Shown: in pieces, positions 3,867 through 61,555 of the stretch
Layout of the letters: each line of letters starts with the position of its first letter
Position numbering within the stretch: the first letter of the stretch is position 1
Source: Octopus sinensis
Taxonomy: Eukaryota
Length of the DNA stretch: 64,000 nucleotides
NCBI RefSeq assembly: GCF_006345805.1
Contig: NC_042997.1
Coordinates: 106,392,001 to 106,456,000, forward strand
Reading direction: 5' to 3'
Made by a program: the position numbers and the translations under genes
The notes under the pieces: model-generated
Seen by the model: the letters and a program-made list of their open reading frames with translations, nothing else
Told to the model about the DNA's origin: nothing
Database searches by the model: none

Positions 3867-5080
3867 ACTCTGATCTCAAATATCTTGACTTCAGTAAATT
3901 GTTGGTGAGAGTCCACCTCAATAACCTCCTGTGAAAATTGTCAAATATTGGAACCCGTGGAAAACTGCCAGATTGGAATAACTACTTCCTGGTGAACAAA
4001 ATTCATGCCCAGAAAGAGTCACCAGTGGTGTCTCTCAGGTGACTGTTTTGGTCCCATTTCTGTTCATCGTCCATATAAACGACATTTCAAACGTCATCGA
4101 ACACAGCAAAGTAAACATATTTGCAGGTGAAACCAAGCTCCTGAAGATTATCAATGAATAACAAGACCGAACTGAACTCCAGACGGATCTACATGCTGTA
4201 AGCCAACTGGCACACAAAAACAAAATGTAGTTAAATGAGGGAAGATCTGAACTGATGCATTTTGGAAAAAAGATTACGTTTAACCAAACATATTCTTTTC
4301 AAAAAGAGGAACCACTCACAATATCCTATAATATTTAGTGACTTTAGAGTGACTGTTGACAACAATCACAGCTGGAGTGTCCACATCAATAATAAAGTTG
4401 ATATAGTTCGCAGGACGAGCTACTGGATATTCAGAACTTTCTGGTCAGAGAGCAAGATGTCATCGTTCCTCTCTTCTCTTCTTTTTTAGGGCTACACCTA
4501 GAATCCTGCTACACATGTTGTCTTCCCACACAAAGCAAAACGTTGCAAGAATTGAGCCACCCTAGAAAGTTTACTAAAAAATCAAAGGCATGGCTGATTT
4601 TGATTATTGGGACCACTGTAAAACATTGGAACTTTATTTACCTCAACGCTGCTGCGAGCGCTACATTAGTTGCACAATGTAGAGAATACATCACCAGCTT
4701 ACGACCTTAACATTAGATTCAGAATTTATCCAAGGCGGGGACCACGTGGTATATGCCTCCTACACTATTCAGGATCACAGCTCATAAATTCACTGCAACA
4801 CAATTTCTTTTCCTCGATAGGTCCTGCTCTATTTTAACATTATCCCAAAACAAATCAAAGAGGAAAAAGATACCATCACCTTCAAATGAATCCTGGACAG
4901 ATTTCTTCAAAGAATAACAGATAAGCCACCTATACCTGGATACATCTCAGTCAACAACTCCTTACTTGAACGGGCAATGATAACACAAAATCTAACCAAC
5001 ACATGACTAAACAGATCCTATTAAGTATTGCTATTAATTTAGACATGCTCTGGGCCAATCTTTGGCCGAAATATCTCTAA
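3867..5080 (+). mobile_element. CR1-like LINE RT fragment (duplicate of 54742-55800)
   Basis: SGVSQVTVLVPFLFIVHINDI..IFAGETKL (decayed SGVPQGSVLGP..FADDTK). Shares defects with 54742-55800. Confidence 0.8.
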
Positions 5081-5142
5081 GTTATCTGTCTATCTATTTA
5101 TCTAGCAATCTATCAGTCTTTCTGTCTATTTGTCTGTCTGTT

Positions 5143-5175
<33 letters not shown>

Positions 5176-5226
5176 GCCTGTCTGTCTGAATGTCAGTATG
5201 TATGTATGTATGTATGTATGTATGTA

Positions 5227-5273
<47 letters not shown>

Positions 5274-5289
5274 ATATGTATGTATGTAT

Positions 5290-6720
5290 GCCTCATCTGT
5301 ATTTAATCATTTATATTCTTCCTCTGAAGAAGGAGTTGGTTTCTTACAAACATACAAAGCTCCATCTTTGGAATGTTGATAACGAAAACGTCACATTTTA
5401 AACCTGAGAAAAGTCTTGTACAGTTTTACTGCTCCGTTTACAGATTGTATTTGCAACGTGCGAATCAGTTGGTTGATAACTTTTTCTGAAAAGCCAAGCT
5501 TATCTAGACTTACAGTTAGTTATCAGTATAAATATAAATTTGTATTCCGCATATAGAAGCTGGGGGTTTCGAAGCAGTTGTCCGTAGTTGCCTTGTTTCT
5601 CTTTGATTTTCAAAGAGATATTCACATCATCAGGACAGCTAACCTCTATGACGGCACATAGTTTTTCTTGTTTGGTCCAAACAACAATATCCGGCCGGTT
5701 ATACTTAGACTTGACAGGTGTTGTGATGGGTATCTTCCACCAGTATTCCTTGTGTTGATATTTGTGTACGTATTCAATAACAGGTATTCTCTATATTTAT
5801 TCCAAGACATTCTTTTTTTGCAACAATTTCATATCTCATAGAGAGGCTGTGCCTTGGTGACATTTTTTGGACAGCCGCTAATCACATGTGTGGTGTCTTG
5901 CACAAAAATATAACATTATTTACATTTAAGCTGATTCTTGGAACTCCAAAGGGCTCACTGTCTCTTTTGTTGATGAAGTATTTAGTAGTGATCTCCTGTT
6001 CTTGGATTGTAAATGAAGAGCCTTTGAAGTGGGATGTGATGTAGCATTCACGAGTCCAAGAGAGATTTCGTTCATGTCAATGTTCCTATCTTCTTCAAGT
6101 AAACGAGAAACATACCCATACATAGTCTTTTTTCCTTGGTATGCTGAGCATTTCACCTCCAGGTCTTCTTTGAGGTATGTTAGTCCAGCTGATTTGGGGT
6201 TGCATGGGAGGTCATTAGGACTAGGAGCTCACTTCCAACACGTAGGATATTGTTTTCTTCACTTTTCAGCATGTAGTTAATGTATATATTTTTGTTGTAG
6301 TTGTTGTTTAGCAAATGCGGTCTGAGAGAGACTATACGACATTGAAAGAATCTCTGCACTCAGCTTAAACCTCTACTTCTTTTGCGTCTTCTTAAGTAGA
6401 GCCTGTCGATATCACTATTTTTGTTTTGTGGAGGTTTCCAAATGAAATTAGAATCTTGAGGGTTAAACTGTCTATGGAGTGGATTTATACTACAGACCAG
6501 TCGAGTATCCCAAATACATTGTGAAACATTATCTTGTTGTAAAATCAGAGTTCAAACTGCATATTTTTCTTAGTCTGGTGTAATATTGCTGGGCGACTCC
6601 ATCTTTATTCACAGTTCATTTATTGTTATGATATATTTTCATCAATACTGAGGTACATGTAGCATTTTTTGTGTGGGACAGGAGAGATAGTGAGACCATT
6701 GATGCGCAAGTGTTGCATCT
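5290..6720 (-). mobile_element. R4/Dong/NeSL-like RLE LINE fragment
   Basis: KTMYGY; QEITTK; THVISGCPKM zinc knuckle remnant; YNRPDIVVW..AVIEVSCPDDVN (PD-(D/E)xK nuclease). Paralog of 56010-57350. Confidence 0.8.
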
Positions 6721-13087: not shown

Positions 13088-13916
13088 AATTTTTAAAAAA
13101 TCCTATGTTACACCATCAACTTCATTGGTCGAATACGCCTGCCAACAACAAAATTTCCTGTTACATCTAAGCGAATCATTGTAAATTCTGCAACTCTATA
13201 TATGTAAGCCACGCCGATTATGCTGTTAGGAAGCAACTGAAATTTTATTTTGCGACGTACATATCATATTGGCGAGACAAACCGTAAACCTATGCATGGA
13301 GATCAGAAATGGTTTACTCAAATTTAACATATTTCATTAACGTTCGATCGAAACTTGCAATATATCGACCCCAGGACTTATTTGTTCCAGGTTAATGGAA
13401 AACGGCCGTTAGTCAGACATAATTGATTCACGTAAGCTGAAGGCAAAAATGTGATTTATTATTACTCCGCACTAGCCGAGTAAATAATAACCATCTATCT
13501 TTAATTGTGTTATCATTAGGTTTGGAAGCTTGTTTTCATTTATTTCGGTAAATATTAGAATACAAAATGAAACCGAACTATTTATGAAATCGCACAAGAA
13601 TACCTGATAGCATTCGAATATTTAAAATTATTAGACGTATTAAAATTGGGTAATCCATTTGAACATTTACTGACGAGCACTTTCCGCAATTTTTGGTCTC
13701 ATTCACATGGCACACTTTCCTCATAAGGAAAATATACTAAATATACATTCGTAATATTATGTCTAATTAACTTTGATTGAATATTTTATCTCACTTATAG
13801 CAAGCAGTTACGTAAGTTGATTTAACTTTCAGCAAAATTTTTAGTCTTTCACATACTATAACTACCAATCAGGTCGAGATTTCATTATTTTGAATAATTC
13901 TTTTGACGTTTAACCT

Positions 13917-14777
13917 GTGATTTTTGAATATCGAAAATAACGCAATAGGAATTTCAGGTCAAGTTGCCGAAGAAGGTTTCAGCAAAGCTTTTCTAAATTT
14001 AACCAGCCTCGAAGAATTACATCTTTCAAATAACCACATTCAATATTTATCAAACAACAGTTTGTTACAGCTGAAAAATCTCAGAATCTTAAATTTACGC
14101 AACAATTTATTGGAATCTTTTGATGTAAAGATTAGTCATATGTTAAATTTATCATATTTAGATTTATCTAAAAACATTTTACAGGAACTGTCGGAAAACA
14201 CTTTTAATGCTATTGAAAAGATATCTGAACACCATAAATTCACTGTCAACATCCAAAACAATAATTTGAAATGTGGTTGTGCACAAATAAGATTTCTCAC
14301 TTGGCTGCACAAAGTACGGAATTCAGGTCGTTTGAAAATAATGTACTCGAAATGTACTCATCCTAACGGAACAGTGTGGAAGTTGAAAGGAAATCAGCTT
14401 GTTAGGATCACACTTGTTCAGCCTTGATAATAATTGATAATAATTGCGATAAGTTTTGGTGTTGTAATACTGATTATATTTCTAGTTGCCTCACTCATTT
14501 ACCATTTTAGATGGAAGCTACGATATTTATATTACATGATCAGAGAAAAGTATTCCTACAAACGACTCACTCCCGATGAATATATTTACGATGCATTTGT
14601 GATTTATGCCGACGAGAATCGAGATTTTGCATTAAATTATTTGATTCCAGAATTGGAAGAAAACGAAAACTTACGTTTGAATATTCATCATCGGGACTTC
14701 CCTGTTGGAAAATTGATAACAGAAAATATATTATCAGCAATCCAATCTAGTCGAAAATGTATTATTTTATTAAGCAG
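13917..14777 (+). pseudogene. Toll-like receptor copy A, truncated pseudogene (C-like)
   Basis: Nearly identical to copy C 46560-47432 but lacks the start codon and N-terminal LRRs. Has a 16-bp deletion and in-frame TGA TAA TAA at 14425-14433. Keeps donor AG|GTAAGT. No exon 2 found downstream. Confidence 0.93.
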
Positions 14778-25554: not shown

Positions 25555-27799
25555 ATGACAATGAAGGGAATATTCATTTTGGCTTTTGCTTACTTCATGA
25601 AAACTTTTATTAAAGTGACTGAGAATTGTCAAACAGACTGCCCTGATGTTTGCAACTGTACTGAGATTATATTCAGCCGCTGTACTGTAATCTGTAAAGA
25701 TCAAAATCTAACTCAAATGCCTGTTTCTTTTCCAAAGAATGCTATGTCAATAGATTTAAGTCGAAATCGTATTAAAAGTATTCCAGCGGATAGTTTGAAG
25801 CACTTAAATTTATTAGAGGTGCTGAAACTTGATGATAATCTTCTTGAAGGTTTTCAACCGACCGTCTTTGAAGGTTTGTGGTCCTTGAAAGAACTCTCGT
25901 TAGAGTACAACCGACTAACTATGACTTATAAATCCTTTCCTATAAACCTGTTCCAAAATTTAACAAAAGTGAAAATTCTGAAATTACGAGGTAACTCATT
26001 ACTATGTAACGGTCTAACCTATATCGATAAAACTATTTCTTATTTAACTTCACTGGAACAATTATTTATGACAGGTACTACATACAGTTACTTTGGAGCG
26101 GGGTATACAAAACTGTCAAACTTAAAGTATGTTAGCTTTGCTACAAAGCGAAATAAATCAAATCTGCACTCCGTCACGAGTGGCACCTTTGTCAATATAC
26201 CATATGTTGCCTACTTGAATGTCAGTTACTCTCAATTAGCTGTAATTGATAAAAAAGCATTTCGATTTTTAAATAATCTAAGAGTTCTAGATATTTCAAA
26301 TAATAATATTTGTTACGAATACGGTATTTCTTCTCAGGTTTCCAGTTAACTCATCATCTTGAATATCTTGCCCTCAATAATATCATTGCTAGGAATAACC
26401 TTGGAATGCCCTTATATGCGAGACAAGGATCACAATTACATCATACATCACTGAAAAGATTCGAGTTTAGTTATAACAGACTGGAATATATTGAGCCCAA
26501 TTTTATTTCTTCTTTGCCCAAAACATTGGAATACGCATATTTGAGAAATAATATATTAACATATGGAAAATATTTGCTTGAAATCAAGACTTTAACCAAC
26601 ATTAAATTAATTGACATTAGTACGACATTATCACATAAGAACCTTCCATTATTTCGTTATAAATTACTCAATAGGGATACTACTTACAGTTTTACAATCT
26701 CTAAATCTCTTAAAAAACTCTTACTACAAGGTTGCCACTATCAATTTCCGATACCACCATTCCATATAAAAGATGCAAATGCAATAAGATTAATTAATGC
26801 AACGAATAATTTATTTTGTCCATGGAGTGGCCCAGTCCGAGGCTTAGAACAATTACAAATTCTGGATTTAAGTCACAACCAATGCAATAATATCAGTAAC
26901 GAATTCTTCACATATTTCACTGGTCTGCGACTTTTGAATATCGAAAATAACGCAATAGGAATTTCAGAGCAAGTTGCCAAAGAAGGTTTCAGCAAAGCTT
27001 TTCAAAATTTAACCAGCCTTGAGGAATTATATCTTTCAAATAACAACATCCAATATTTATCAAACAACAGTTTGTTACAGCTGAAAAATCTCAGAATCTT
27101 AAATTTACGCAACAATTTATTGGAATCTTTTGATGTAAAGATTAGTCATATGTTAAATTTATCATATTTAGATTTATCTAAAAACGTTTTACAGGAACTG
27201 TCGGAAAACACTTTTAATGCTATTGAAAAAATATCTGAACACCATAAATTCACTGTCAACATCCAAAGCAATAATTTGAAATGTGGTTGTGCACAAATAA
27301 GATTTCTCACTTGGCTGCACAAAGTACGGAATTCAGGTCGTTTGAAAATAATGTACTCGAAATGTACTCATCCTAACGGAACAGTGTGGAAGTTGACAGA
27401 CAGTCGGCTTCCTTTGATTATAACCTATCTTAACCATAGGTGTTCATCATTTATCGGTATAATTATCGCTGTAACATGTCTTATTGTGCTTCTGGGTTGC
27501 TTTTCTGTTGGAGCTCTTGTTTACCATTTTAGATGGAAACTACGATATTTGTATTACATGATCCGAGAACGATACGCATATCAGAGAATACAAACTGGGG
27601 AATATCTTTATGACGCTTTTGTATCTTATGCAGAAGAAGATCGAGGTTGTGTTGTTGAATATCTAATTCCAGAACTTGAAGAAAAGGATACGTTTAAACT
27701 GAATATCCATCATCGAGATTTTCCTGCAGGGAAGCAGATTGCTGAAAATATATTGTTTGCTATCCAATCGAGTCGAAAATGTCTTATTTTACTGAGCAG
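25555..27799 (+). pseudogene. Toll-like receptor copy B, exon 1, with one frameshift near 26300-26345 (pseudogene, allele or assembly error)
   Basis: ORFs 25555-26349 (signal peptide, LRRNT CPDVCNC, LRRs) and 26310-27803 (LRRs, NNLKCGC, TM, TIR YDAFVSY / HHRDFPAG) overlap in different frames and together align with copy C. Donor AG|GTAAAT after 27799. Confidence 0.9.
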
Positions 27800-36300: not shown

Positions 36301-36538
36301 GAACTTTTTGGCAAGTGAATGGTGTATGTTTGAATATAACATGGCTAAAATGGAATGTGTTCACGCTGAAAGAGATTTGGTAATTGTCATAATGCTCGAA
36401 GAATTCTCTGTAGACATTCTACCTTTGCAATTAAAGCATCAAATCAAAATGCAGAGTTATATATGTTTTCCGACTGAGAACGCGAAGACAAGTGATGTTT
36501 TCTGGAATAATCTTAAAAAATCTATACGAGAAGGTTAA
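36301..36538 (+). CDS. Toll-like receptor copy B, exon 2 (C-terminal TIR)
   Basis: Acceptor ttaatttcAG|G completes Arg (AG+G). Encodes NFLASEWCMFEYNMAKME...YICFP...FWNNLKKSIREG*, paralogous to copy C exon 2. Confidence 0.9.
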
Positions 36539-38337: not shown

Positions 38338-39722
38338 ACATCCTATTCTGGGTGCGGATTTTTTGAACAATTTTAATCTATTGGTAGATGTCAGGAGACA
38401 GAGACTCGTCGACGGTTCTACGTCTTAGTCTACACCTGCAAAGGCCACTACCAATGCTGTTCTATGTCCTTCATTTTTGTTGCCACTGCTGGTGATGTAT
38501 TTCATTCACTCTTAGCTTCTTTCCCAGAGTTGGTAGATCAGCTATTCCAAACGGCAAAACTATCAGTCTTTTCACGCCTGCGGCGACTTGCTCCTGACCG
38601 TGTTAAGAAGGCTAGGTCCGAGTTTGAGCATATGCTCCAGCTTGGCCTTATTCGCCCCCTCCACCAGCCCTTGGGCATCTCCCCTTCATTTGGCACGAAA
38701 ATGGGATTCTGATTTTCGCCCGGTGAGGGATTATAGACGTTTGACCGCGGTCACTGTTCCTGATCGCTATCCCATAAGAAATCTCCAGGACTTCTCTAAT
38801 TTGCATGGTTGTACTATTTTTTCTAAGGTTGACCTAGTTCGTGCCTATCATCAAATACCAGTCAATCCTGAAGACGTTCCAAAAACTGCCATCACTACTC
38901 CCTTTGGCAGCTTCAAGTTCCTTTTTATGAGCTTCGGTTTGCGGAACGCCACGAGCATGTTCCAAAGATTTATCGATGAAGTTGTCTGTGGACTTGATTT
39001 TGTGTTCGCTTACGTTGAGGACATACTCATTGCAAGCGACAAGCGTGAGAATCACCTCCAACACTTAAATAAACTCTTTCAATGTCTTCGCGCCAACAAT
39101 GTGCGAATCAATCCCAATAAGTGTGTTTTCGGACAGTCCTCTCTGGAATTTCTGGGGCATTATATCGACTCAAATGTTATCAAACCTCTCTCTTCCAAAG
39201 TTGATACAATTCAGCGCATCGCACTCCCCACTTCACTACGCCAACTCCGCCACTTTTGGGGATTCGTCAACTTCTACAGACGATTCATTCTTGACAGTGC
39301 AGAAAGGTTACTTCCCTTGACTCAGCTATTGAAGGAAAATACAAAAAGAATTCTCCTATTACTTTATCTGCCTTGGCGTTATCTGCTTTTGAGTCAATCA
39401 AGAAAGAAATAGCTTCTGTCCCTTTGCTTCCACATCCAGTTCCCGATGCTCCTCTCTCTTTAACCGTTGTTGCATCGGATTCTTCGGTTGGTGCTGTTTT
39501 GCAGCACACCGTAGACAATCAGACTAAACCTTTGGCGTTTTCTTCTCGTCAATTAAAGCCAGCTGACCGTCGCTACAGTACGTTTGATCGCGAGCTCTTG
39601 GCGATCTACTTGCCAGTTCGTCATTTTCAACATCAACTCGAGAGCCGATTTTGTGATTTATACTGATCACAAGCCTCTTACGTTTGCTCTGTCATCTAAA
39701 TAGGACAAATATTCGCCTCGTG
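38338..39722 (+). mobile_element. Ty3/Gypsy pol fragment (protease end, RT, RNase H), frameshifted
   Basis: ILGADFL; SPWASPLHL; DYRRL; DRYP; [15 protein letters not shown]; FGLRNA; [10 protein letters not shown]; DSSVGAVLQ; RYSTFDRELLAIY; YTDHKPL. Confidence 0.92.
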
Positions 39723-44249: not shown

Positions 44250-45189
44250 AATTTTTTTTAAATCCTCTCTTGCTCTACTAACTTCATTGGTCAAATACGT
44301 CTGCCAATAACAAAAGCTTAAATTCCTATTACATCTTTTAGCGAATCACTGCAAAATTCAACAAAAGACAACTCCATACATGGAAGAACGAAAGCCTCGC
44401 CGATTATTCTGTCAGGATACAACTGAAATTTTACTTTACGGCGTACATATCATATTGGCGAGACAGAACCTAAGCCCGTGGACGAGGAGTAGAAATGGTT
44501 TACTCAGATTTAACAAATTACATTTAAGTTAGATCGAAAACTTGCAACATATCTTATATTTGTTCCAGATTAATGGAAAACGGCCGTTAATCATACATAA
44601 ATGATTCACATACGCTGAAGACAAAGATATAATTTATTATTATTACTTCACACTGCCAGCAGAGTAATAATAACCATCTATCTTTAATTATATTATCACT
44701 AGATCGGGAAGCTTGTTTTCATTTATATCGCTAAATACCGGAATATAAAATGAAAACGAACAGATTATGAAGTCGAACAACAATTCCACCTGAAAGTATT
44801 CCAATATTTAAAATCATTAGACCCACTAAATTTGGATAATCCATTGGAACATTTACTGCCAAGCACTTTCCGCGATTTTTGGTCTCATTCAGATAGAAAA
44901 CTTGCCTTTCCTTAATACGAAAATATACTAAATGTATATACGTAATATTATGTGAAATGAACTTCGATTGAATGCTTTACCCACACTTATAGCAATCAGA
45001 TACGTAAGTAGCTTTAACTTATAGCAAAACTTTTAGTCTTTCACATATTATCACTACCAATCAGGTCGAGATTTCATTATTTTGGATCTTTCTTTTGACG
45101 TTTAACCTAGTATTCCATAGCAATCTATTAAAAAATTAGCATTAAATTACTTGCGTTTCTTCATTTCTGGCTGAAATGCTTATCTAAAG
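44250..45189 (+). promoter_or_regulatory. Putative promoter/5' region of TLR copy C (homologous to 13090-13916 upstream of copy A)
   Basis: Non-repetitive block shared by A and C directly upstream of the CDS. Contains CCAATCAG (NF-Y box, about 45057 / 13865) and TGACGT (about 45096 / 13904) in both copies. Confidence 0.55.
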
Positions 45190-47432
45190 ATGATATACAT
45201 ATTCATTATTATATTTGGTTATTTCTTGAAAATATTTACTTCAGTGACTGCAAATTGTCAGACAGATTGTCCAATTGTTTGCCACTGTACCGAAGACAAA
45301 TTAAAACACTGTACAGTAACATGTACTGACAAAATTCTAACTCAAATACCCAGTTATTTTCCAGAAAATACGACATCATTAGATCTAAGTCGAAACCACA
45401 TTAAAAGAATTCCTCCTGATATTATTAGACATTTAAACTTATTAGAGGTGCTAAAAGTTGACGATAATCTTCTTGAATATTTACTGCCAAACACCTTTCA
45501 AGGTTTGTGGTCTTTGAGAGAACTGTCATTGGAATACAACAAACTAACTATTAATTATTCGTCATTTCCTATAAATCTTTTCCGAAATTTAACTAAAGTG
45601 AAAATTCTAAAATTACGAGGTAACACTGTGCACAAAAACACAAAACTTATTGATAGAACTATATCTCATCTAACTGCACTGGAAGATTTATACATGACAG
45701 GTGGTCAGTACTTTATCTTTGGAGCAGGATATAAGAATTTGACAAAATTAAAATATATTAATTTTGCCTCAAAAAGAAACAGTTCAGTTATGATATATAT
45801 TGTAAAATATGCATTTAGAAATGTTCCCAGAATAACCCATTTGAATTTAGATTACTGCCACTTACACAGATTAAACGGCTACACATTAGCATTTTTCGAA
45901 AATCTGCACCTCCTACGCATTTCATTTAACAATCAAAAGCTGCTGGAGGAAATTCCACGGACCTTGGGACGTCTAAAATTCCCAAGCAAATTGCAAATAT
46001 TATATTTTAGTAATATGAAATTATATGTGGGAACTGGCAATGTTATTACCGAACGTTTTACAAAAACTTTACATAAATCTGGATTGAAGAAGATTGTTTT
46101 AAATTCAGATCATATTGAATCAATTTCTTGGAATAGCATTCCCTCCTTGCCCAACACATTGGAATACGCTTATTTGAGAAACAACCAATTAACATACGGA
46201 GAATATATCTTTCAAATTAAGGCTTTACCCAACATTAAATTAATCGACATTAGCATGACATTATCATGTAGAAAGCTACCATTTATTCGTAGTAAATTAT
46301 TCAATAGCGATATTACATACAGTTATGCAATCCCTAAATCTCTTAAAACATTCTTACTACAAGGTTGCCACTATCAATTTCCGATACCACCATTCCATAT
46401 AAAAGATGCAAATGCAATACGATTAATTAATGCAACGAATAATTTATTTTGTCCATGGAGTGGCCCAGTCCGAGGCTTAGAACAATTACAAATTCTGGAT
46501 TTAAGTCAGAACCAATGCAATAATATCAGCAACGAATTCTTCACATATTTCACTGGTCTGCGACTTTTGAATATCGAAAATAACGCAATAGGAATTTCAG
46601 GTCAAGTTGCCGAAGAAGGTTTCAGCAAAGCTTTTCTAAATTTAACCAGCCTCGAAGAATTACATCTTTCAAATAACCACATTCAATATTTATCAAACAA
46701 CAGTTTGTTACAGCTGAAAAATCTCAGAATCTTAAATTTACGCAACAATTTATTGGAATCATTTGATGTAAAGATTAGTCATATGTTAAATTTATCATAT
46801 TTAGATTTATCTAAAAACGTTTTACAGGAACTGTCGGAAAACACTTTTAATGCCATTGAAAAGATATCTGAACACCATAAATTCACTGTCAACATCCAAA
46901 GCAATAATTTGAAATGTGGTTGTGCACAAATAAGATTTCTCACTTGGCTGCACAAAGTACGGAATTCAGGTCGTTTGAAAATAATGTACTCGAAATGTAC
47001 TCATCCTAACGGAACAGTATGGAAGTTGAAAGGAGATCGGCTTGTTAGGATCGTAAGCTTTCTGAATCACACTTGTTCAGCCTTGATAGGGATAATAATT
47101 GCGATAAGTTTTGGTGTTGTAATACTGATTATATTTCTAGTTGCCTCACTCATTTACCATTTTAGATGGAAGCTACAATATTTATATTACATGATCCGAG
47201 AAAAGTATTCCTACAAACGACTCACTCCCGATGAATATATTTACGATGCATTTGTGATTTATGCCGACGAAAATCGAGATTTTGCATTAAATTATTTGAT
47301 TCCAGAATTGGAAGAAAAAGAAAACTTACGTTTGAATATTCATCATCGGGACTTCCCTGTTGGAAAATTGATATCAGAAAATATATTATCAGCAATCCAA
47401 TCTAGTCGAAAATGTATTATTTTATTAAGCAG
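45190..47432 (+). CDS. Toll-like receptor copy C, exon 1 (signal peptide, LRRNT, LRRs, LRRCT, TM, N-terminal TIR)
   Basis: Open 748-codon frame. Hydrophobic N-terminus MIYIFIIIFGYFL; LRRNT CPIVCHC..VTC; many LxxLxLxxN repeats; single juxtamembrane cysteine cluster NNLKCGC..KCTHP; TM LIGIIIAISFGVVILIIFLVASLIY; TIR box1 YDAFVIY and BB loop HHRDFPVG. Ends at donor AG|GTAAGA (phase 2). Confidence 0.96.
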
Positions 47433-49699: not shown

Positions 49700-49940
49700 A
49701 TATTTTGTGGAAAGTAAATGGTGTATGTTTGAATATAACTTAGCTAAAATGGAATATATTCATACCGAAAGAAATATAGTAATTATTGTGGTACTGGAGC
49801 AGGTACCACACAGACAGCTGCCATTACCAATTCTTGAACAGATAAAGAATCAGAGTTACATTGAATTTCCAAAAGAAAATGAGATTGCCCAAGAAATGTT
49901 CTGGAAAAATCTAAAACATTCTATACAGCTAAAAGATTAA
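49700..49940 (+). CDS. Toll-like receptor copy C, exon 2 (C-terminal TIR)
   Basis: Acceptor ttctcttgcAG|A completes the Arg codon (AG+A). Encodes YFVESKWCMFEYNLA...YIEFP...FWKNLK (SxWC motif, box3 FW), stop TAA at 49938-49940, AATAAA downstream near 50013. Spliced protein about 827 aa. Confidence 0.93.
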
Positions 49941-52999: not shown

Positions 53000-55800
53000 C
53001 TAGACTGCAAAATGGATGTATCACATGCTGATCGGAGTCCCACCCATAAAGGACATTAGAAGGATGGGCCTCAGCAACCCGTTATTCAGCAGCAAATACC
53101 GCCTGCTTTCGTTTCGCCATCTCGTCTCATTTCACCCAACCCTACCGTAGTAAAACGGGATTCACTACAACAGACTACTACCATTACGACAGGTCAAAAT
53201 CCGCTTCAACAACAACAGTCTAATATTACTACTACTACATCAGTGATATTGAATAACGATTTTCCCTCTAAGCCACATGGCAATATAGAAAACCCTCCTC
53301 CACCTCAAAAAACGAGCCGTTATCCGTTTCAAGGTATTTGTTAATTTGGCCCCAGCAGCACCACCAACAAGGGACACTACCCTTTCTCTCATATTCCCCT
53401 ATGTTGTAGTGTCTACACTTGTTAACTGCGCTTGTCCATATGGTATAAATGGAAAAAAGACTGCCTCCAGCTACTCTCCCAAATATAGAGCCCGTGTCCC
53501 TGACGCTAAACACGGATGCACAAAAGGCAACAGGTGTACGTTATTACATCCTAGGCTCTGTCAAATTTCTCTGTCTCTAAAGATATGCCTGAATTTGGAA
53601 CGTAGTTATCACCATCTGAAAGGCTGAAGACGAATGAAAAATAAACAGCAAAAGGCAAGTGCAATAAATATAAATTCAACCATATTCCATCACTTAACAC
53701 GGACCAACGAAAAATCCCATCTATCAGAAGGAACTATGGGAAAATCATAACATCAAGTAATATAAACAAGTACAATATATCACCTGATTGAATGGCTAAC
53801 CAATGAGAAAATTCCCTTTTACAGTTCCACTCATATTGATATAATATGGCAGCGCTTTGAGAACATTGTCTCTCATTCATGCTCTAAATACGCACGAAAT
53901 TCACTAGCACGAACAGAAATAGGCTCCCAAGAGAGAAAAAGACACTCATAGGGAAAATCGAAAGGCTAAGAAAAATCAACCAGTTAAAATACTACCACCA
54001 ACAACGTCCACTCTGAACAGCATTAAGAAGGCTTGAGTTGGGAAAACAGAATCTGCAGATCAGTATGTAAAACCTACAACGACAATCAATGCGCTGGAGA
54101 GGAAAACTGGGTAATCGAAGGAATCAAACAGGATCCGAAAGTGTTCTATTAATATGTCAACAAGCATAGGGCCGCTGTCTCACCAGTTGGTCCACTGACT
54201 AATGATAACAGCTGTCTTCAGCATGACGCTAAAGAAATGGCCGAACTACTGCAGGAACAATGCTGCTCTGTCTTTCGTGATCCCACAGATATTGATGCAA
54301 GGGATGTGAACGAAGTTGATCCTCAACATATTATCTCGGACACATCTTTTACTGCATCAGATATCACAACAGCAATGAATGTAGGCCCTAATAGATTCCT
54401 CGCTAATATCCTAAATAAATATGGACTCCAGCTTGCAATCCCACGTACCAACATCTGAAAATTTCTTTAGACTCAAACTATATACCGCAACACTTCATAT
54501 CCCAATTTGTCATGCCGGTCTTCAAAAAGGATAAAAAAAAGTCTCTCGCTATCAACTATCGTCCAAATTCCCTCACCCTCCATATCAACAATGTGTTTGA
54601 AAAGTGATGAAATTAACGATAACTGGCCTTCTGGAAAGTTACAACCTTCTACCCAGCATGACTTCTACTGCGGCAAGGACAGTCTAACGCGGCCGTCACA
54701 GCATATCGACGATGTCCTTAAACACTTTGGATCATGTTCGAACTCTGATCTCAAATATCGTGACTTCAGTTAAGCGTTCGTGAGAGCCCACCACAATAAC
54801 CTCCTGTGAAAATTGTCAAATACTGGAACCAGTGGAAAACTGCCAGATTGGATTGACTACTTCCTGGTGAACAAAATACATGCTGTGATCGGTGGAGTTC
54901 ATTCATGCCCAGAAAGAGTCACCAGTGGTGTCGCTCCGGGGATTGTTTTGGTCCCATCTCTGCTTATTGTCTATATAAACATCTCAAACGTCATCGAATA
55001 GAGTAAACATATTCGCAGATCACATCAAGCTCTTAAAAATTATCGAGACCGAACTGAACTTCAGACGGATCTACATGCTGCAAGCCAACTGGCAGACAAA
55101 AACAAAATGTGGTTAAATGAGAGGAAATTTGAACTTACGCTTTGTGGAAAAAGACTACGTTTAACCTAACAGATTCTCTTCAGTCAGAGGAACCAGCCAC
55201 AGCATCCTATAGTATTGAGTAATTTAAGATTGGTCTCCCCACACAAAGCAAAAGATTACAAGACTTGAGTAATCCCAGACAACATTCACTAAAAAAATTA
55301 AGGGCATGCCTGATTTTGATTATTGGGACCACTGTGAAACATTGAAACTTTATTTACTCCAAGCTGTTGTGAGCGCTACATCTTTTGGACAATGTGGAAA
55401 ATATATCACCGGCATACGACCTTAACATTAGATTCAGAATTTATCCAAGGCTGGGACCACGTGGTGTATGCCTCCTACACTATTCAGGATCACAGCACAT
55501 AAATTCACTGCAACACAATTTCTTTTCCTCGATAGGTCCTGCTGTATTTTAACATTATCCCAAAACAAATCAAAGAGGAAAAAGATACCATCACCTTCAA
55601 ATGAATCGTTGACAGATTTCTTCAAGGAATAACAGATAAGCCACTTATACCTGGATACATCTCAGTCAACAACTCCTTACTTGAACGGGCAATGATAACA
55701 CAAAACCTAACCAACACATGACTAAACAGATCCTATTGAGTGTTGCTATTAATTTAGACATGCTCTGGGCCAATCTTTGGCTGAAACATATCGAAGTTAT
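53000..55800 (+). mobile_element. CR1-like LINE remnant with Cys/His-rich ORF1 and RT pieces
   Basis: CPYGING..CTKGNRCTLLHPRLC..C..HHLKG; NYRPNSLT; SGVAPGIVLVP; IFADHIKL. Confidence 0.75.
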
Positions 55801-55853
55801 CTATCTATTTATGTAGCTATCTAGCTATCTGTCTGTTTGTCTGTTTGTCTATC

Positions 55854-55884
<31 letters not shown>

Positions 55885-56009
55885 CTATCTTTATCTTTCT
55901 TTTCTGACAGTCTGTCCGTATGTATGTATGCATGTATGTATGTATGTATGTATGTATGTATGTATGTATGTATGAATGTATGTATGAATGTAGGCTTGTG
56001 TGTATGTAA

Positions 56010-57350
56010 GACTCTTCCGTACTTAATTATTTAGATTCTTCCTCTGAAAAATGTTGATAACGAAAACAATGTCACATATTAAACCTGAGAAATGTCTTGC
56101 ATAGTTTTAGTGTTCCGCTTATAGACTGCATTTGCAATGTGGAAATAAGTTGGTTGATTGCTTTTTCTAAAACACCAAGCTTATCCAGACTTACAGTTAG
56201 TTATTGGTATAAATATAAATTTGCATTCCGGATATAGAAGCTGGAAGTTTCGAAGCAGTTTTCCGTAGTTAGCTTCTTTGTCTTTCATTTTCAAAGAGAT
56301 ATTCACATCAGCAGGACAGCTAGCCTCTATGACGGAACATACTTTTTCTTGTCTGTTCCAAACAACAATGTCCGGCATGTTATGCTTGCATTTGACAGAT
56401 GTTTTGACGGGTATGTTCCGCCAGTATTCCTTATGTTGATATTTGTGTACGTATTCAATAACAGAGGGATTCTCTACATTTGTTCCAGGACAATCTTGTT
56501 TTTCCAATGGCATTTTTAGCAACATTCTTATGTTTCATAGAGAGGCTGTACCTTGGTGACATTTTTTGGACAGCCGCTAATCACATGTGTGGTGTCTTGC
56601 ACAAAAATATAACATTATTTACATTTAAGCTGATTCTTGGAACTCCAAAGGCCTCACTGTCTCTTTTGTTGATGAAGTATTTAGTAGTGATCTCCTGTTC
56701 TTGGATTGCAAATGAAGAGCCTTTGAAGTGTTATGTAATGTAGCAGTCACTAGTTCAAGAGAGATTTCGCTTCACGTTTATGTTCCTATCTTCTTCAAGT
56801 AAACGAGAAACATACCCATACATAGTCGTTTTTCTTGGTATGCTGAGCATTTCACCTCCAGGTCTTCTTTGAGGTATGTTAGTCCAGCTGATTTGGGGTT
56901 GCATGGGAGGTCATTAGGACTAGGAGCTCACTTCCAACACGTAGGATATTGTTTTCTTCACTTTTCAGCATTTAGTTAATGTATATATTTTTGTTGCAGT
57001 TGTTGTTTAACAAGTGCTGTCTGAGACATTTAAAGGCTCTCTACACTGAGCTAAAGCCTCTACTTCCTTTGTCTCTTCTAAGGTAGAACTTGTCGATATC
57101 ACTATTTTTGTTTTGTTAAGATTTCCAAATGAAGTTAGATTCTTGAGGGTTAAAATGTTTATGGAGTGGATTTCTACTTCAGACCAGTCGATTATCTCAA
57201 ATGTTGGAAACAGTACAGGTACTGCTAATGCGCTGTGAGATATTGTCTTGTTGTAAAAGGAGAGTTCAGACTACCATATTTGTTTTAATCTGGTTTAATA
57301 TTCTTGGATAACGCACATTTTCATCAATGCCAAGGTACAAGTAGCATTTT
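56010..57350 (-). mobile_element. R4/Dong/NeSL-like RLE LINE fragment (duplicate of 5290-6680)
   Basis: KHNMPDIVVWNRQEKVCSVIEASCPADVNI. Colinear nucleotide similarity with 5290-6680. Confidence 0.8.
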
Positions 57351-59863
57351 GTGGCAGACGAGATTGAGGATTTTTATACAACTCTTCGTTCAACCATTGA
57401 GCAAGTACCATACTTTTCTAGTTATAGCTGGTAATCTGAATGCTAAACTAGGACCCGATAAGACCAAGTTTACTCTCAACTCTAAAACTAATCGGAACGG
57501 GGAAATGCTCAAAGACTTTTTAGAGGAATTTAATCTTTACACCTCCAACAATTATTTTATGAAACCAAAAGGACAACTTTGGACATTCGAGTATCCATCT
57601 GGTGACAGGGCACAAATTGACTACCTCATTTTTCGAAAGAAGTGGCGAAATAGTGTCAAAGACTCGAGATCCTACTCTTCCTTTAGTTCTTTTGGTTCCG
57701 ACCACAGAATTGTATCAGCTACCGTTAAGCTTATTCTTCGCTCATCCAAAAAAGCTAAGCCTCATCAGATAAAAACGATCGACTGGAAGGAAGTCTCGTC
57801 TAACCCCGATATGTCCAAGCAATTTACTATTGAGGTCTATAACAAATTTCAATCTTTGTCTACTTCTGAAATAGATGCTGAGAACATTGAAGAAGTTTAC
57901 AGTAGCCTCATCAAATCAACAGAGGAAGTTGCACTGGCTACTCTACCCAAAGAGTAGAGTAGAGACCAGAGCAAGCCTTCAAATTCTCCAAATGTCATCG
58001 AAGCCAGAAACCATCTAAAGTCTATATCACTAGCCTACCACCGTTCTCCATCCCAGTCACTGAAGATCCAACTCATAACTGCCAAGAAGAATCTTGATGA
58101 TGTTTACTTGAACGCCGAGGTCGACTCTATTAACGGCAAAATTAGCAAACTAACCAAAGAGCACATTAGTAAAAAAACACAGTCTTGCCTGGAAATCTAT
58201 CAAAGACCTATCAGGCAAAAATTCTGGGTCATCAATTAGAATCAAAGGGGGATCAGCTAAGAAGCGTTTAGAAAATTGGTCAATTCATTTTAAAAACCTT
58301 CTTGGAAAGAATGCCACAATCCCCGATAACCCCACTCTTCCAAGTGTGCCTATATCAGATACGCTGGACATCAACACCTTCCCTTTTACCATATTTGAAC
58401 TAACAGCAGCCACTAAACAACTGAAAGCCTCGAAAACTTTTGGTCCCGACAACATCCCAGCTATAATTTGGAAGGATGATAGATTTCACGTACTTTTGCT
58501 AAATCTTTGCAAACACACACTTTCCACTTTTATAGCTCCAAAGATTTGGCACCAATCTCAAATCATCCTAATACCCAAAAAAGGCGATTTATCCCTCGTC
58601 ACCAACTACAGGGGTTTATCTCTAATGTCAATTGATGCAAAATTGTACAACAAACTGATTCTAAACCGTCTCGTCCCTTTTGTTGAACCTTTGCTCCGAA
58701 AGAATCAAAATAGATTCAGACATGGGCGCTCAACGTTGAGCCAAATACTATGCCTACGATAACTCATTGAAGAATCAAAAGCATTTAATCGCGATCTTGC
58801 AATGGTGTTTGTAGACTTTTCTAAAGCGTTCGACTCTGTAGATAGGTACAAGATGTTTGAAATCCTTAAGCTCTATGGGATTCCAGACAAAATCATTTCT
58901 GCCATCAAGGTCCTCTACACAGATACGTCTTCAACCATCTTAACCCATGATGGGGAAACATCATCTTTCTCAATCTGCAAGGAGACACACTCGTCCCATT
59001 TCTCTTGTCATTGACTATGTGCTACGTATGTCAGTTGATACCATTTCTTGTAAGGGCTTTGAAATAAAACCTAGAAGAAGTTCCAGATACCCAGCTGAAC
59101 ACTGAACGGACACTGACTTTGCTGACGACATCGATCTTATCAGTGATTCTCTCTCCAATGCCCAGTCTCTTTTACAATCTCTTAAATAAGCATCAAATTG
59201 TGTATGTCTTTACCTCAATGAGTCCAAGACTGAATATGTAAACAAGTGCCTGTCCAACAGTGATTTCATCATCCATACTCTCAACAATACCCTCTTAAAT
59301 ATGGTTTCTGATTACAAATATCTTGGGTCATACATATCATCATCTGAAAAAGATTTTCTAACTAGAAAGTGTATGGCCTGGTCAGCCTGTAATGATATGC
59401 ATAAGATCTGATCATCAAATCTAAGTAGGGATTTCAAACTTAAAATCTTCAAAGCCACAGTCGAACCAATTCTACTATATGGCTCAGAAGCCTGGACGTA
59501 ATCAAAGAAGCTTGAGAGGCGGTTGGATAGAACTTACACTCGCCTCCTTATGAGAGCTCAAAATCTCTCGTGGAAGTACAAATATATGAGAAATTACCAC
59601 TTGTATCATCTCTTGTGAAAGGTAGAAGAGTTCAGTTTGCTGGACATTGTTGTAGAGCTGAAAACGAGGTAATTTCTACTCTTCTCCTCTGGAAGCCATC
59701 TGCTTGCGATACCAGAGGGCGCACACTCTCATACCCTGATGTAATCTCCAGGGATACAGGCATCCAGCAACGGGACCTCCGTAATGCTATGATTGACCGT
59801 GAAGTCACGTGTACCATAGTAAATTCCATTGTCTCGACCACGGTCGAACAATGATGATGATGA
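57350..59863 (+). mobile_element. RTE-clade non-LTR retrotransposon (APE + RT), decayed, with (TGA)n tail
   Basis: GNLNAKLG, QIDYLI, GSDHRIV (APE); PKKGDLS..NYRGLSL, VDFSKAFDSV, DFADDI (RT); tgatgatgatga at the 3' end. Confidence 0.88.
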
Positions 59864-61555
59864 AAACAACTATTTTGGCATTCGTTCATCCGCCATTTGA
59901 ACAATATGCCCACATCATCTTATTTGGTTCCTCAAAATCATAGCTTTAATTGAGGTGATGCCTGCAGATGCAAGGACATCTGTGTTTGGAGTAAAAGAAA
60001 TATATTTAATGCTTAAATTGCGATGAAGGCATTTTAGTTACAATTATTCTAACAATTTAAAATGCCTTTCATAACAAGACCATATTCCACAAGGATACAG
60101 CAGGGATGGTAAGACAAATGATTTGTAAAGAGCCAGCTTTTTATTCTTATTAATATGTCGCAGGCACCAAACGCGTGACTCCAAGCCACGAAATGCTTTT
60201 GCTGCCCTTTGAATTCGTTTTGAATTTCAGTCTAGTTAGATTTTTAAAATTCACTGTTGTTCGATATTTTATGTAAATACCCTCCTCAGAGTTTTGAAAA
60301 GCATGTGACAACACAACGGCAAATGATATTGCAAAGAGAGTGGGTGGATCAAGGTCTCCTTGCTTTACTCCATTTTCCACGGCAAACGGTCCAGAGAGCC
60401 TACCACCAAAGTTAATTCTAGCTTTCATATCTTGATGCAAGGACCTGATCATGTTTACAAATTTGTCTGGACAACCTAATTTCCTTAGAATTAGCTACAG
60501 AGCATTTCAATTAACAGTATCGAATGCTTTGCTCAAATCAACAGGCAATGGTATAGAGCAAGATTCTGTTCAATTCACTTTACTTGTAATTGTCTGATGG
60601 TAAAGATACAAGCAACTGTGCCCCTGGAGGAGTGAAAACCACACTGAGACTCAGACTCTATGAAGGTATTTAAACGTTCCAACAAAATGCGGGCAAGTAC
60701 CTTTACGGACAAAAGTGAAATCCCATGAAAATTGCCACACAGATCCTTTGGCCCCCATTTATACAAGGAGACTAAAATGGCATCAATCCAGTCTTGAGGC
60801 ACTTTCTCAGTTCTCCAACAGTGACAAATTAACATATTTAAGAGTTCAAACATTTTGTCACCCTTATATTTCAAAACTTCTGCGCAGATTCTATCAGATC
60901 TTGGAGACTTATTGTTATTCAGTTTATCCACAGCTAAATAAATGTCATTTAGAGTTGGTTCAAATGACATCTCTTCTAAAGCTGGAAGGTGTTCAATTTT
61001 TTTTATCGTCGTCATGTCAGCGAATGATGGTTTATTCAAAAGTGCAGAAAAATGTACTGCCCAGTGCTTATGAATAGAAACGGTGTCAGTCAAAAGCAAA
61101 CATCCATTTACTGTTCCCACTAGAGCTATTGAAGAAGATTTTGGGCCATATACCTCCTTAACATAAGAGTACAAACCCTTGGCATCATTTCTATCAGCTG
61201 CTTCTTCTGCCCCTTTTGCTCTGTCATTCCACCATTCCTGTTTAATTTTCCTTAGAGCAGTCTGCACTTTCCCTTTCAGCTTTTTGTAAGCTTCGTTTGA
61301 ATTGGGGTTCAAGGACTGAGAAAGAAGTGTATTGCCCAAGTTTTATTTTTCTAAAAGAAGATTATGAATTTCTGCTGATCTATCTGAGAACCAGTTACTG
61401 GACTTACGTGATTTAAATCCTACTGACAAACTTGCAGCCTGAAATACTTTTGTTTTGAAATCTTCCCATAGATTGTTTGATTTAAGATTGATACTTTCTA
61501 TAGCTTCGTGGAATCTTTGCAAGTTGCTTGAGAATTTAAAGTTTGCAAAAGATAG
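59864..61555 (-). mobile_element. RTE-clade LINE fragment (second family)
   Basis: VPQDWIDA, GNFHGISLLS, ESQCGF, NGVKQG..PTLF. Same family as 21300-22400. Confidence 0.85.

What the first reader, a model, noticed from the sequence alone, without database searches (positions are those of the whole stretch)
26719..27396. Sharp about 680-bp gene-conversion tract shared by otherwise divergent TLR paralogs
Seen: B 26719-27396 and C 46352-47029 differ at roughly 16 positions by eye, with synonymous sites mostly identical. The tract runs from LLQGCHYQFP to GTVWKL. N-terminal LRRs, TM, TIR, intron and promoter are clearly diverged, and the 3' boundary is abrupt. Inference: the membrane-proximal LRR/LRRCT block, a likely dimerisation surface, is homogenised while ligand-binding LRRs and TIRs diverge. 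This resembles vertebrate TLR1/TLR6 conversion, except that here the TIR is excluded.
Basis: partly seen in the sequence, partly recalled or inferred. Interest (0 to 1): 0.7.

Follow-up and report, generated by a model that had tools for sequence, protein, structure and literature searches.

The report
Recurrent gene conversion between octopus TLRs
Two old types of octopus immune receptor (Toll-like receptors) differ at both ends but share one nearly identical outer segment next to the membrane, in Octopus and separately in the argonaut, most likely because the neighbouring genes keep copying that segment onto each other; unlike the known vertebrate cases, the signalling tail is left out.

Summary
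Confirmed: B and C differ at 16 of 678 bases; dS is 0.07 in the tract against 0.79-1.45 in the N-terminal and TM/TIR regions. The genome holds five copies in ~89 kb, of two types (A, C, D; B, E), all carrying the tract. Both types also exist in O. bimaculoides and Argonauta. Trees group by type in TM/TIR but by lineage in the tract (AU p 1e-50 and 7e-7; Octopus/Argonauta quartet sites 36:0 inside, 1:14 in TM/TIR). Short-read contigs from other studies break at the same edges and O. vulgaris orthologs keep the copy-specific residues, so this is no assembly chimera. The tract is a patchwork of repeated events with a stepped 5' edge, covering LRR13-20 and most of LRRCT (model). Same-type copies do convert across TM/TIR, so the 3' edge follows type divergence. 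A dimerisation role is untested. This is a known process (TLR1/6, avian TLR1/2) in a new variant; I found no octopus report in 9 searches. An unreviewed scan note reports a similar ectodomain-only pattern in abalone TLRs.

The parts
26719..27396 (+). Cross-type conversion tract in gene B (aa 388-613 in C numbering; LRR13-LRR20 plus LRRCT up to the helix leading into the membrane)
   Evidence: 16 of 678 differences to C; dS 0.073; structure model; short-read contigs start at 26719 in 4 of 4 runs
46352..47029 (+). Cross-type conversion tract in gene C
   Evidence: listed contigs start at 46352 in 3 of 4 runs and end at 47018 in 4 of 4
13917..14388 (+). 3' part of the tract in the truncated copy A
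   Evidence: 99% to C over query 207-678; 7 of 472 differences
26502..26718 (+). Shoulder of intermediate divergence (likely an older cross-type conversion), aa 316-387; C counterpart 46135-46351
   Evidence: dS 0.37; in the Octopus/Argonauta quartet, 7 lineage-pattern against 2 type-pattern sites
26471..27799 (+). Longer same-type tract shared by B and the outside copy E (G000:C1:106492501-106494729, minus strand), running through TM/TIR into the intron start
   Evidence: B vs E: 3 of 248, 20 of 678 and 2 of 404 differences, against 160 of 907 upstream; intron alignment
25555..27799 (+). Gene B, first coding exon (B-type TLR: LRRNT, LRRs, LRRCT, TM, first half of TIR). The frameshift near 26325 is likely an assembly error
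   Evidence: ORFs; Pfam; one extra base at 26325 in 3 of 3 runs that cover the site; O. vulgaris ortholog P0124 is open
36301..36538 (+). Gene B, second coding exon (second half of TIR)
   Evidence: tblastn 98.7% to P0124; spliced contig in run X4
45190..47432 (+). Gene C, first coding exon (intact C-type TLR)
   Evidence: 753-aa open frame; Pfam LRR and TIR; model pLDDT 86.6
49700..49940 (+). Gene C, second coding exon
   Evidence: tblastn 97.5% to P0001; spliced contig in run X12
13917..14777 (+). Copy A: C-type pseudogene; about 1.45 kb (C 45109-46558) is deleted, so the upstream region joins the tract directly; small indels near TM; no exon 2 found
   Evidence: the junction also appears as a loose end in run X7
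47030..47432 (+). C-type juxtamembrane helix, TM and TIR start, excluded from cross-type conversion; carries Ile690 and Asn695 where relatives have Ser and Asp
   Evidence: 124 of 404 differences to B; Ser in 51 of 52 and Asp in 44 of 52 non-octopod relatives

Best explanation
Five clustered octopus Toll-like receptor copies of two old types share one nearly identical membrane-proximal ectodomain block, most likely because repeated non-allelic gene conversion copies short patches between the neighbours, and the block likely ends where the two types must stay different. Shown: the two types (A/C/D and B/E) are older than the Octopus-Argonauta split, yet inside the block paralogs group by lineage; the block is a patchwork; same-type copies also share TM/TIR. 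Inferred: in germ-line recombination a neighbour 20-90 kb away serves as template where identity is high. Cross-type copies of LRR13-LRRCT are tolerated because this scaffold is interchangeable. Conversions that run into the juxtamembrane helix/TM/TIR or the N-terminal LRRs are lost, by selection for type-specific signalling and recognition and by the homology barrier that the ~30% flank divergence now forms. Conversion itself about 0.93; selection helping to hold the edges about 0.55.
For: dS 0.073 inside against 0.79-1.45 in the N-terminal and TM/TIR regions; permutation 0 of 100,000. TM/TIR tree (10 rows): C-type clade 100/100, Argonauta pair rejected, p-AU 1.2e-50. Tract tree (11 rows): Argonauta pair 100/100, C-type clade rejected, p-AU 7e-7. 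Quartet sites, lineage:type. Own vs Argonauta: 0:10 (aa 276-315), 7:2 (shoulder), 36:0 (tract), 1:14 (TM/TIR). Own vs O. bimaculoides: 2:65, 0:11, 9:0 (1 site of the third pattern), 0:19. Orthologs are less conserved in the tract (66-72% Octopus vs Argonauta) than in TM/TIR (79-81%), so paralog identity (97%, 92%, 84%) is not constraint. Same-type B and E differ more inside the tract (20 of 678) than in its flanks (5 of 652; p 0.004), as expected if each took patches from the other type; among B, C, D, E only 3 of 25 variable tract sites follow type, against 124 of 126 in TM/TIR. Type-specific TM/TIR residues are kept in three lineages, including C-type Ile690 against Ser in 51 of 52 relatives. 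Same-type pairs share TM/TIR.
Against: The O. bimaculoides clade in the tract has 86/98 support without outgroups (not starred) and is unresolved with outgroups; it rests on 9 quartet sites. Edges are not identical across lineages: in Argonauta the most alike part is aa ~376-535 (83-97%), while aa 536-605 is only 57-67% alike between types, and a shoulder extends further 5'. Other species were compared as proteins from automatic gene models, some fused or partial, so no cross-species dS was computed. Nothing here separates selection from a neutral homology barrier. Non-reciprocal transfer was not observed directly.
Confidence: 0.8

Rival explanations
1. Neutral residual island. Conversion once covered the whole gene, stopped at random where divergence passed the pairing threshold, and goes on only in this block; the edges carry no functional meaning.
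For: TM/TIR differs at 124 of 404 bases and the N-terminal part at 325 of 900, enough to block pairing today. The stepped 5' edge and the older 3' part in Argonauta look like an eroding island. PMC3924837 (passages) describes concerted evolution ending when conversion is restricted.
Against: The 3' edge lies at nearly the same place in three lineages (last lineage-pattern sites at aa 594-617, first type-pattern sites at aa 614-622) and coincides with the start of the helix at aa 616. Type-specific TIR residues at otherwise invariant positions are conserved. An early, neutrally fixed edge would also be inherited, so this does not exclude the rival.
Confidence: 0.35
2. The block is kept alike by positive need: it is the surface by which the two types pair with each other or with one shared partner or ligand, so the two act as a heterodimer or paired receptors with different TIRs.
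For: The block is the membrane-proximal part of the horseshoe, the region proposed for dimer contacts in PMC2077338 and PMC3125219 (passages). Both types are present in 2 of 2 RNA-like runs laid, with one type seen spliced in each. The C-type TIR is atypical at two conserved positions.
Against: The block evolves faster between genera than TM/TIR, so no special constraint is seen. B and E keep private amino-acid changes in it that are shared with their O. vulgaris orthologs, so identity is not strictly enforced. The BB-loop region is 87% alike between the Argonauta types, so not all of the TIR is type-specific.
Confidence: 0.25
3. Assembly collapse or polishing chimera.
For: Near-identical blocks 20 kb apart are prone to it, and the assembly has a likely one-base error in B. 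No laid contig spans a whole gene.
Against: The five copies each carry private variants. B- and E-specific tract residues recur in O. vulgaris orthologs. Both flank types are joined to the tract's 3' end in independent contigs (B-type joint in 4 of 4 runs; C-type pieces in 3 of 4 listed). The same pattern holds in Argonauta.
Confidence: 0.02
4. Purifying selection alone, or a single old exon-shuffling or crossover event, made the block alike.
For: dN is low in the tract (0.014).
Against: Synonymous sites are homogenised too. The block lies inside one exon. One old event cannot give lineage-specific shared residues in both Octopus and Argonauta (36 of 36 informative sites). Repeated double crossovers would leave a similar trace and are not formally excluded.
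Confidence: 0.03

Closest known systems
Mammalian TLR1/TLR6 gene conversion (PMC2077338: part 1 of 5 and passages read)
   Same: Tandem TLR paralogs; independent conversion in each lineage at nearly the same edges; tract starts in the late LRRs and includes the C-terminal cap; N-terminal LRRs stay ortholog-like.
   Different: There the tract (LRR16-19, cap, TM, most of TIR) includes TM and TIR. Here it stops before the juxtamembrane helix, and TM/TIR is the most type-specific part. Five copies and two nested levels here.
Avian TLR1A/B and TLR2A/B conversion (PMC3125219, passages read)
   Same: Region-limited, recurrent conversion between old TLR paralogs, shown by region trees.
   Different: Avian tracts run from LRR14 or LRR15 to the TIR domain (plus N-terminus to LRR8 in TLR2); all include the TIR.
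Paired receptors SIGLEC11/SIGLEC16 (PMC5701461, abstract read)
   Same: Repeated conversion confined to ectodomain sequence in each lineage while the signalling parts differ.
   Different: There the ligand-binding domain is converted and opposite signalling is shown. Here the N-terminal LRRs diverge, both types keep a TIR, and no ligand or signalling data exist.
Red/green opsin 'peak of divergence' model (PMC3924837, passages read)
   Same: Conversion homogenises paralogs except where differences are kept.
   Different: Here the diverged part is most of the gene and the converted part is the island, so selection and a homology barrier are harder to separate.

Membership tests
Toll-like receptor, single-cysteine-cluster type | LRRNT, LRR solenoid, TM helix and TIR in one chain | tested here: met
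   Pfam LRRNT (below cut-off), LRR_8 and TIR; model with about 20 LRR strands, helix 616-657 and a TIR fold; top Foldseek hits are TLR8, TLR7, TLR4, TLR2, TLR3
Toll-like receptor, single-cysteine-cluster type | One LRRCT cysteine cluster next to the membrane | tested here: met
   C576, C578, C603, C629, nearly invariant in alignment A2; the model's LRR strands run on without an inner cap. The molluscan subfamily was not assigned
Non-allelic gene conversion (segmental concerted evolution) | Local collapse of synonymous divergence between old paralogs | tested here: met
   dS 0.073 against 0.37-1.45 in the four other regions; 0 of 100,000 permutations
Non-allelic gene conversion (segmental concerted evolution) | Paralogs group by lineage inside the tract and by ortholog outside | tested here: met
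   AU tests and quartet sites; clear for Octopus vs Argonauta, weaker for O. bimaculoides
Non-allelic gene conversion (segmental concerted evolution) | Not an assembly artefact | tested here: met
   Contigs of 8 runs from 7 coded studies and O. vulgaris orthologs; no spanning long read was seen
Non-allelic gene conversion (segmental concerted evolution) | Non-reciprocal transfer; polymorphisms shared between copies within a population | not testable with these tools
   Needs phased population or gamete data
TLR1/TLR6-type conversion | Tract covers the last LRRs and the C-terminal cap | tested here: met
   LRR13-20 and three of the four LRRCT cysteines
TLR1/TLR6-type conversion | Tract extends through TM and most of TIR | tested here: not met
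   B vs C 124 of 404 differences, dS 1.45; met only between copies of the same type
TLR1/TLR6-type conversion | Both paralogs pair with one common partner TLR | not testable with these tools
   No functional data
Paired receptors (SIGLEC11/16 kind) | Converted ectodomain with divergent TM and cytoplasmic parts | tested here: met
   only the membrane-proximal 226 aa of the ectodomain
Paired receptors (SIGLEC11/16 kind) | Expression in the same cells | tested here: inconclusive
   Both types present in 2 of 2 RNA-like bulk runs; cell type unknown
Paired receptors (SIGLEC11/16 kind) | Shared ligand and opposite signalling | not testable with these tools
   No ligand or signalling data; atypical C-type TIR residues are only a hint

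The most novel reading that the evidence does not exclude
Octopods carry a two-type TLR module: a B-type receptor with a standard TIR and a C-type receptor with an altered TIR share one ectodomain docking block that conversion keeps matched in every lineage, so that freely diversifying N-terminal sensors plug into a common dimer platform with two different signalling outputs, an invertebrate paired-receptor system built from TLRs.
Probability: 0.2. Interest if true: 0.7.

Novelty: new variant of a known kind. Interest (0 to 1): 0.47.

Why it matters
It extends recurrent, region-limited TLR conversion from birds and mammals to a cephalopod and reverses the known layout: the ectodomain scaffold is shared and the signalling tail is protected. 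The edges mark which parts of an uncharacterised octopus receptor pair are interchangeable and which are not, giving direct domain-swap experiments. In practice, whole-gene trees, short-read mapping and qPCR primers in this block will mix up five genes, and gene B is likely mis-called as a pseudogene.

Tried and rejected
Complex prediction of C aa 180-632 with E aa 178-630: no answer (0.00, 0.00; mark 0.34; alignments not used); no evidence either way. Trees with Gigantopelta P0008 as outgroup: long branch, mostly unresolved; rebuilt without it and with P0127/P0129. Rows left out: bim_C1 and bim_C2 from the TM/TIR trees (truncated; replaced by the C-type piece of P0125); arg_C and vul_E from the N-terminal tree (partial); P0003, P0122 (this genome's own E and A/B models), P0002 and P0126 (fused or odd models) were not used as independent rows. 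Repeats or hairpins marking the edges: none shared by B and C at the edges. Base-composition bias as cause: GC3 is 0.31 in the tract against 0.25-0.35 elsewhere. BB-loop difference as type marker: rejected, Argonauta types are alike there. Contig depth is higher over the tract, but the tool says it is no copy number, so it is not counted. A divergence date for Argonauta and Octopus: search listing only, none taken. Earlier findings by place and by sequence: none. Literature: 9 searches listed no report of conversion in octopus TLRs; PMC10279657 has 0 hits for 'gene conversion', 'concerted' or 'recombination'. The library lacks most subscription journals, and no supplements were opened.

Full report
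Observation. B 26719-27396 and C 46352-47029 align without gaps and differ at 16 of 678 bases. Both lie in the long first coding exon of Toll-like receptor genes. B vs C dS is 0.79 (aa 1-150), 1.34 (151-315), 0.37 (316-387), 0.073 (tract, 388-613) and 1.45 (TM/TIR, 614-748). Among same-residue codons 9 of 214 differ inside and 94 of 284 outside; none of 100,000 permutations produced as clean a window. The 3' edge is abrupt; the 5' edge has a 220-bp shoulder. Nine of the 16 differences fall in 83 bp (p 0.001) and 155 bp are identical, so the tract is a mosaic of different ages.

The cluster. A DNA search of the own genome found 5 matches of 5 candidates, all within ~89 kb on C1: A (window, 5'-deleted), B, C, D (98% to C as protein, 98.1% over 6.3 kb of DNA) and E (inverted, intact). 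Outside the tract they fall into two types, A/C/D and B/E: among B, C, D, E, 124 of 126 variable sites in TM/TIR follow type, but only 3 of 25 in the tract. E's protein is identical over exon 1 to P0003, which its source labels Octopus sinensis 'toll-like receptor 4'; the label does not imply orthology to vertebrate TLR4. There are two nested levels. Same-type copies share a longer stretch that runs through TM/TIR (B vs E 2 of 404 differences, against 160 of 907 in the N-terminal part and 15 of 237 in exon 2; A vs C 9 of 388, against 16% upstream and 7.5-10% in the intron). Cross-type sharing stops at aa 613. B and E differ more inside the tract (20 of 678) than beside it (5 of 652; p 0.004): B matches the C-type in the 3' part and E matches it in the middle (site list), as expected if each took patches from the other type.

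Other species. Homolog searches gave both types in O. bimaculoides and Argonauta hians, and B and E orthologs in O. vulgaris. Protein identity between types is 61-65% in TM/TIR within and across genera, while orthologs across genera keep 79-81%. In the tract, between-type identity is 97% (own), 92% (bimaculoides, bim_E vs C1 and C2) and 84% (Argonauta), while Octopus vs Argonauta is 66-72%. The TM/TIR tree splits by type (100/100) and rejects an Argonauta pair (p-AU 1.2e-50); the tract tree pairs the Argonauta paralogs (100/100) and rejects a C-type clade (p-AU 7e-7). With two outgroups the Argonauta pair stays (97/94) but the bimaculoides clade is unresolved. Quartet sites (lineage:type) for own vs Argonauta are 0:10, 7:2, 36:0 and 1:14 along the gene; for own vs bimaculoides 2:65, 0:11, 9:0 and 0:19. 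So the duplication is older than the split of the two genera, and the same block was homogenised separately on each side. In Argonauta the freshest part is aa ~376-535; aa 536-605 is older (57-67%).

Artefact check. Eight public runs from seven coded studies were laid as short-read contigs; one may be the source sample. Listed contigs start at 26719 in 4 of 4 runs laid on B, and at 46352 in 3 of 4 and end at 47018 in 4 of 4 runs laid on C. The B-type flank joins the tract's 3' end in 4 of 4 runs (37-41 letters on the short side), and C-type pieces cross it in 3 of 4 listed. The 5' edge overlaps by 30 letters, one short of the tool's bridging rule, and no contig spans a gene. B- and E-specific tract residues recur in O. 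vulgaris orthologs. Three of three runs covering 26325 carry one extra base and the O. vulgaris ortholog is open, so B is likely intact. Spliced contigs were seen for the B-type (X4) and the C-type (X12), and each of these two runs holds both types.

Anatomy. The AlphaFold2 model (pLDDT 86.6) has about 20 LRR strands. By my count from the strand list, the tract covers LRR13-20 and the LRRCT through C576, C578 and C603, and ends three residues before the helix (616-657) that carries C629 and crosses the membrane. Type-specific residues in TM/TIR are kept in all three lineages; C-type Ile690 and Asn695 replace a Ser found in 51 of 52 and an Asp found in 44 of 52 non-octopod relatives, and B-type Cys698 replaces a Phe found in 45 of 52. 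That these positions lie in TIR box 1 is recalled, not from a call.

Mechanism. Shown: lineage-specific, patchwork homogenisation of one block, including silent sites. Inferred: ectopic conversion among neighbours. Because same-type copies convert across TM/TIR, the DNA there can be converted, and the cross-type edge follows divergence. I think selection for type-specific signalling and recognition helped set and hold the edges (about 0.55); a neutral homology barrier (0.35) cannot be excluded. A positive role of the block as a dimer or partner surface is possible (0.25; it overlaps with the first) and is untested. The block is not unusually conserved between genera, and B and E keep private changes in it.

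Comparison and novelty. Recurrent TLR conversion is known for mammalian TLR1/TLR6 (LRR16-19, cap, TM, most of TIR; PMC2077338, part 1 and passages) and avian TLR1A/B and TLR2A/B (LRR14/15 to TIR; PMC3125219, passages). This case works like them but fails their TIR-inclusion feature. In excluding the signalling part it resembles SIGLEC11/16 (PMC5701461, abstract), without evidence for shared ligand or opposite signalling. Nine searches listed no octopus report, and a mollusc-wide TLR study does not mention conversion (PMC10279657, term search); subscription journals and supplements were not seen. An unreviewed scan note (e1-9957061) reports species-by-species sharing of an outer segment between abalone TLRs; I did not test it, and it prompted the paired-receptor comparison. 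Verdict: real, well supported, a new variant of a known kind; interest 0.47.

Noticed in passing
window 26325: The frameshift in gene B is absent from 3 of 3 public runs covering it and from the O. vulgaris ortholog; likely an assembly error, so B is probably a functional gene.
   Followed up: yes
window 13916-13917: Copy A lost ~1.45 kb (C 45109-46558) with a 2-base microhomology at the junction; the junction also appears in run X7. Its remaining coding part is 1.5-2.3% from C while the upstream region is 16% apart, so A was converted by C/D or decayed only recently.
   Followed up: partly
L006 661-10000 (G000:C1:106456661-106466000): Copy D is 98.1% identical to C over 6.3 kb including the intron; a recent duplicate or an uncollapsed haplotype. 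Ten of its differences from C cluster at aa 151-315.
   Followed up: partly
L010 7813-7899, minus strand: An isolated 29-codon fragment of a C-type exon 2 (76% identity) about 9 kb upstream of E; possibly the relic of a sixth copy.
   Followed up: no
window 27520-27569 and 47153-47202: A 50-bp juxtamembrane stretch is 47 of 50 identical between types inside the diverged TM/TIR region; a possible mini-tract or strong constraint.
   Followed up: no
window 45730-46090 (C aa ~180-300) and the B/E counterparts: LRR6-LRR10 are the most divergent part between and within types (B vs C dN 0.69, B vs E dN 0.27 with dS 0.33 for aa 151-315); the candidate ligand-specificity region.
   Followed up: partly
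P0002, P0121, P0122, P0125: Public gene models fuse the TIR piece of one copy to the next gene in three Octopus species; the models for this cluster are unreliable.
   Followed up: partly
G000:C3:21652252-21866000 and C5:98877013-98927304: Other TLR-like clusters (6 and 3 matches) in the genome; not checked for conversion.
   Followed up: no
window 4520-6587 and 55233-57302; 38537-39412; 57289-58762; 60575-61342: Retroelement-like remains: a 2-kb repeat pair at 85% identity and several reverse-transcriptase-like or endonuclease-like frames, judged by eye from the translations.
   Followed up: no
run X2 on window 26715-27443: Contig depth over the tract is about 55-120 times that of the B-only region, far above the other runs; unexplained, possibly library bias.
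   Followed up: no
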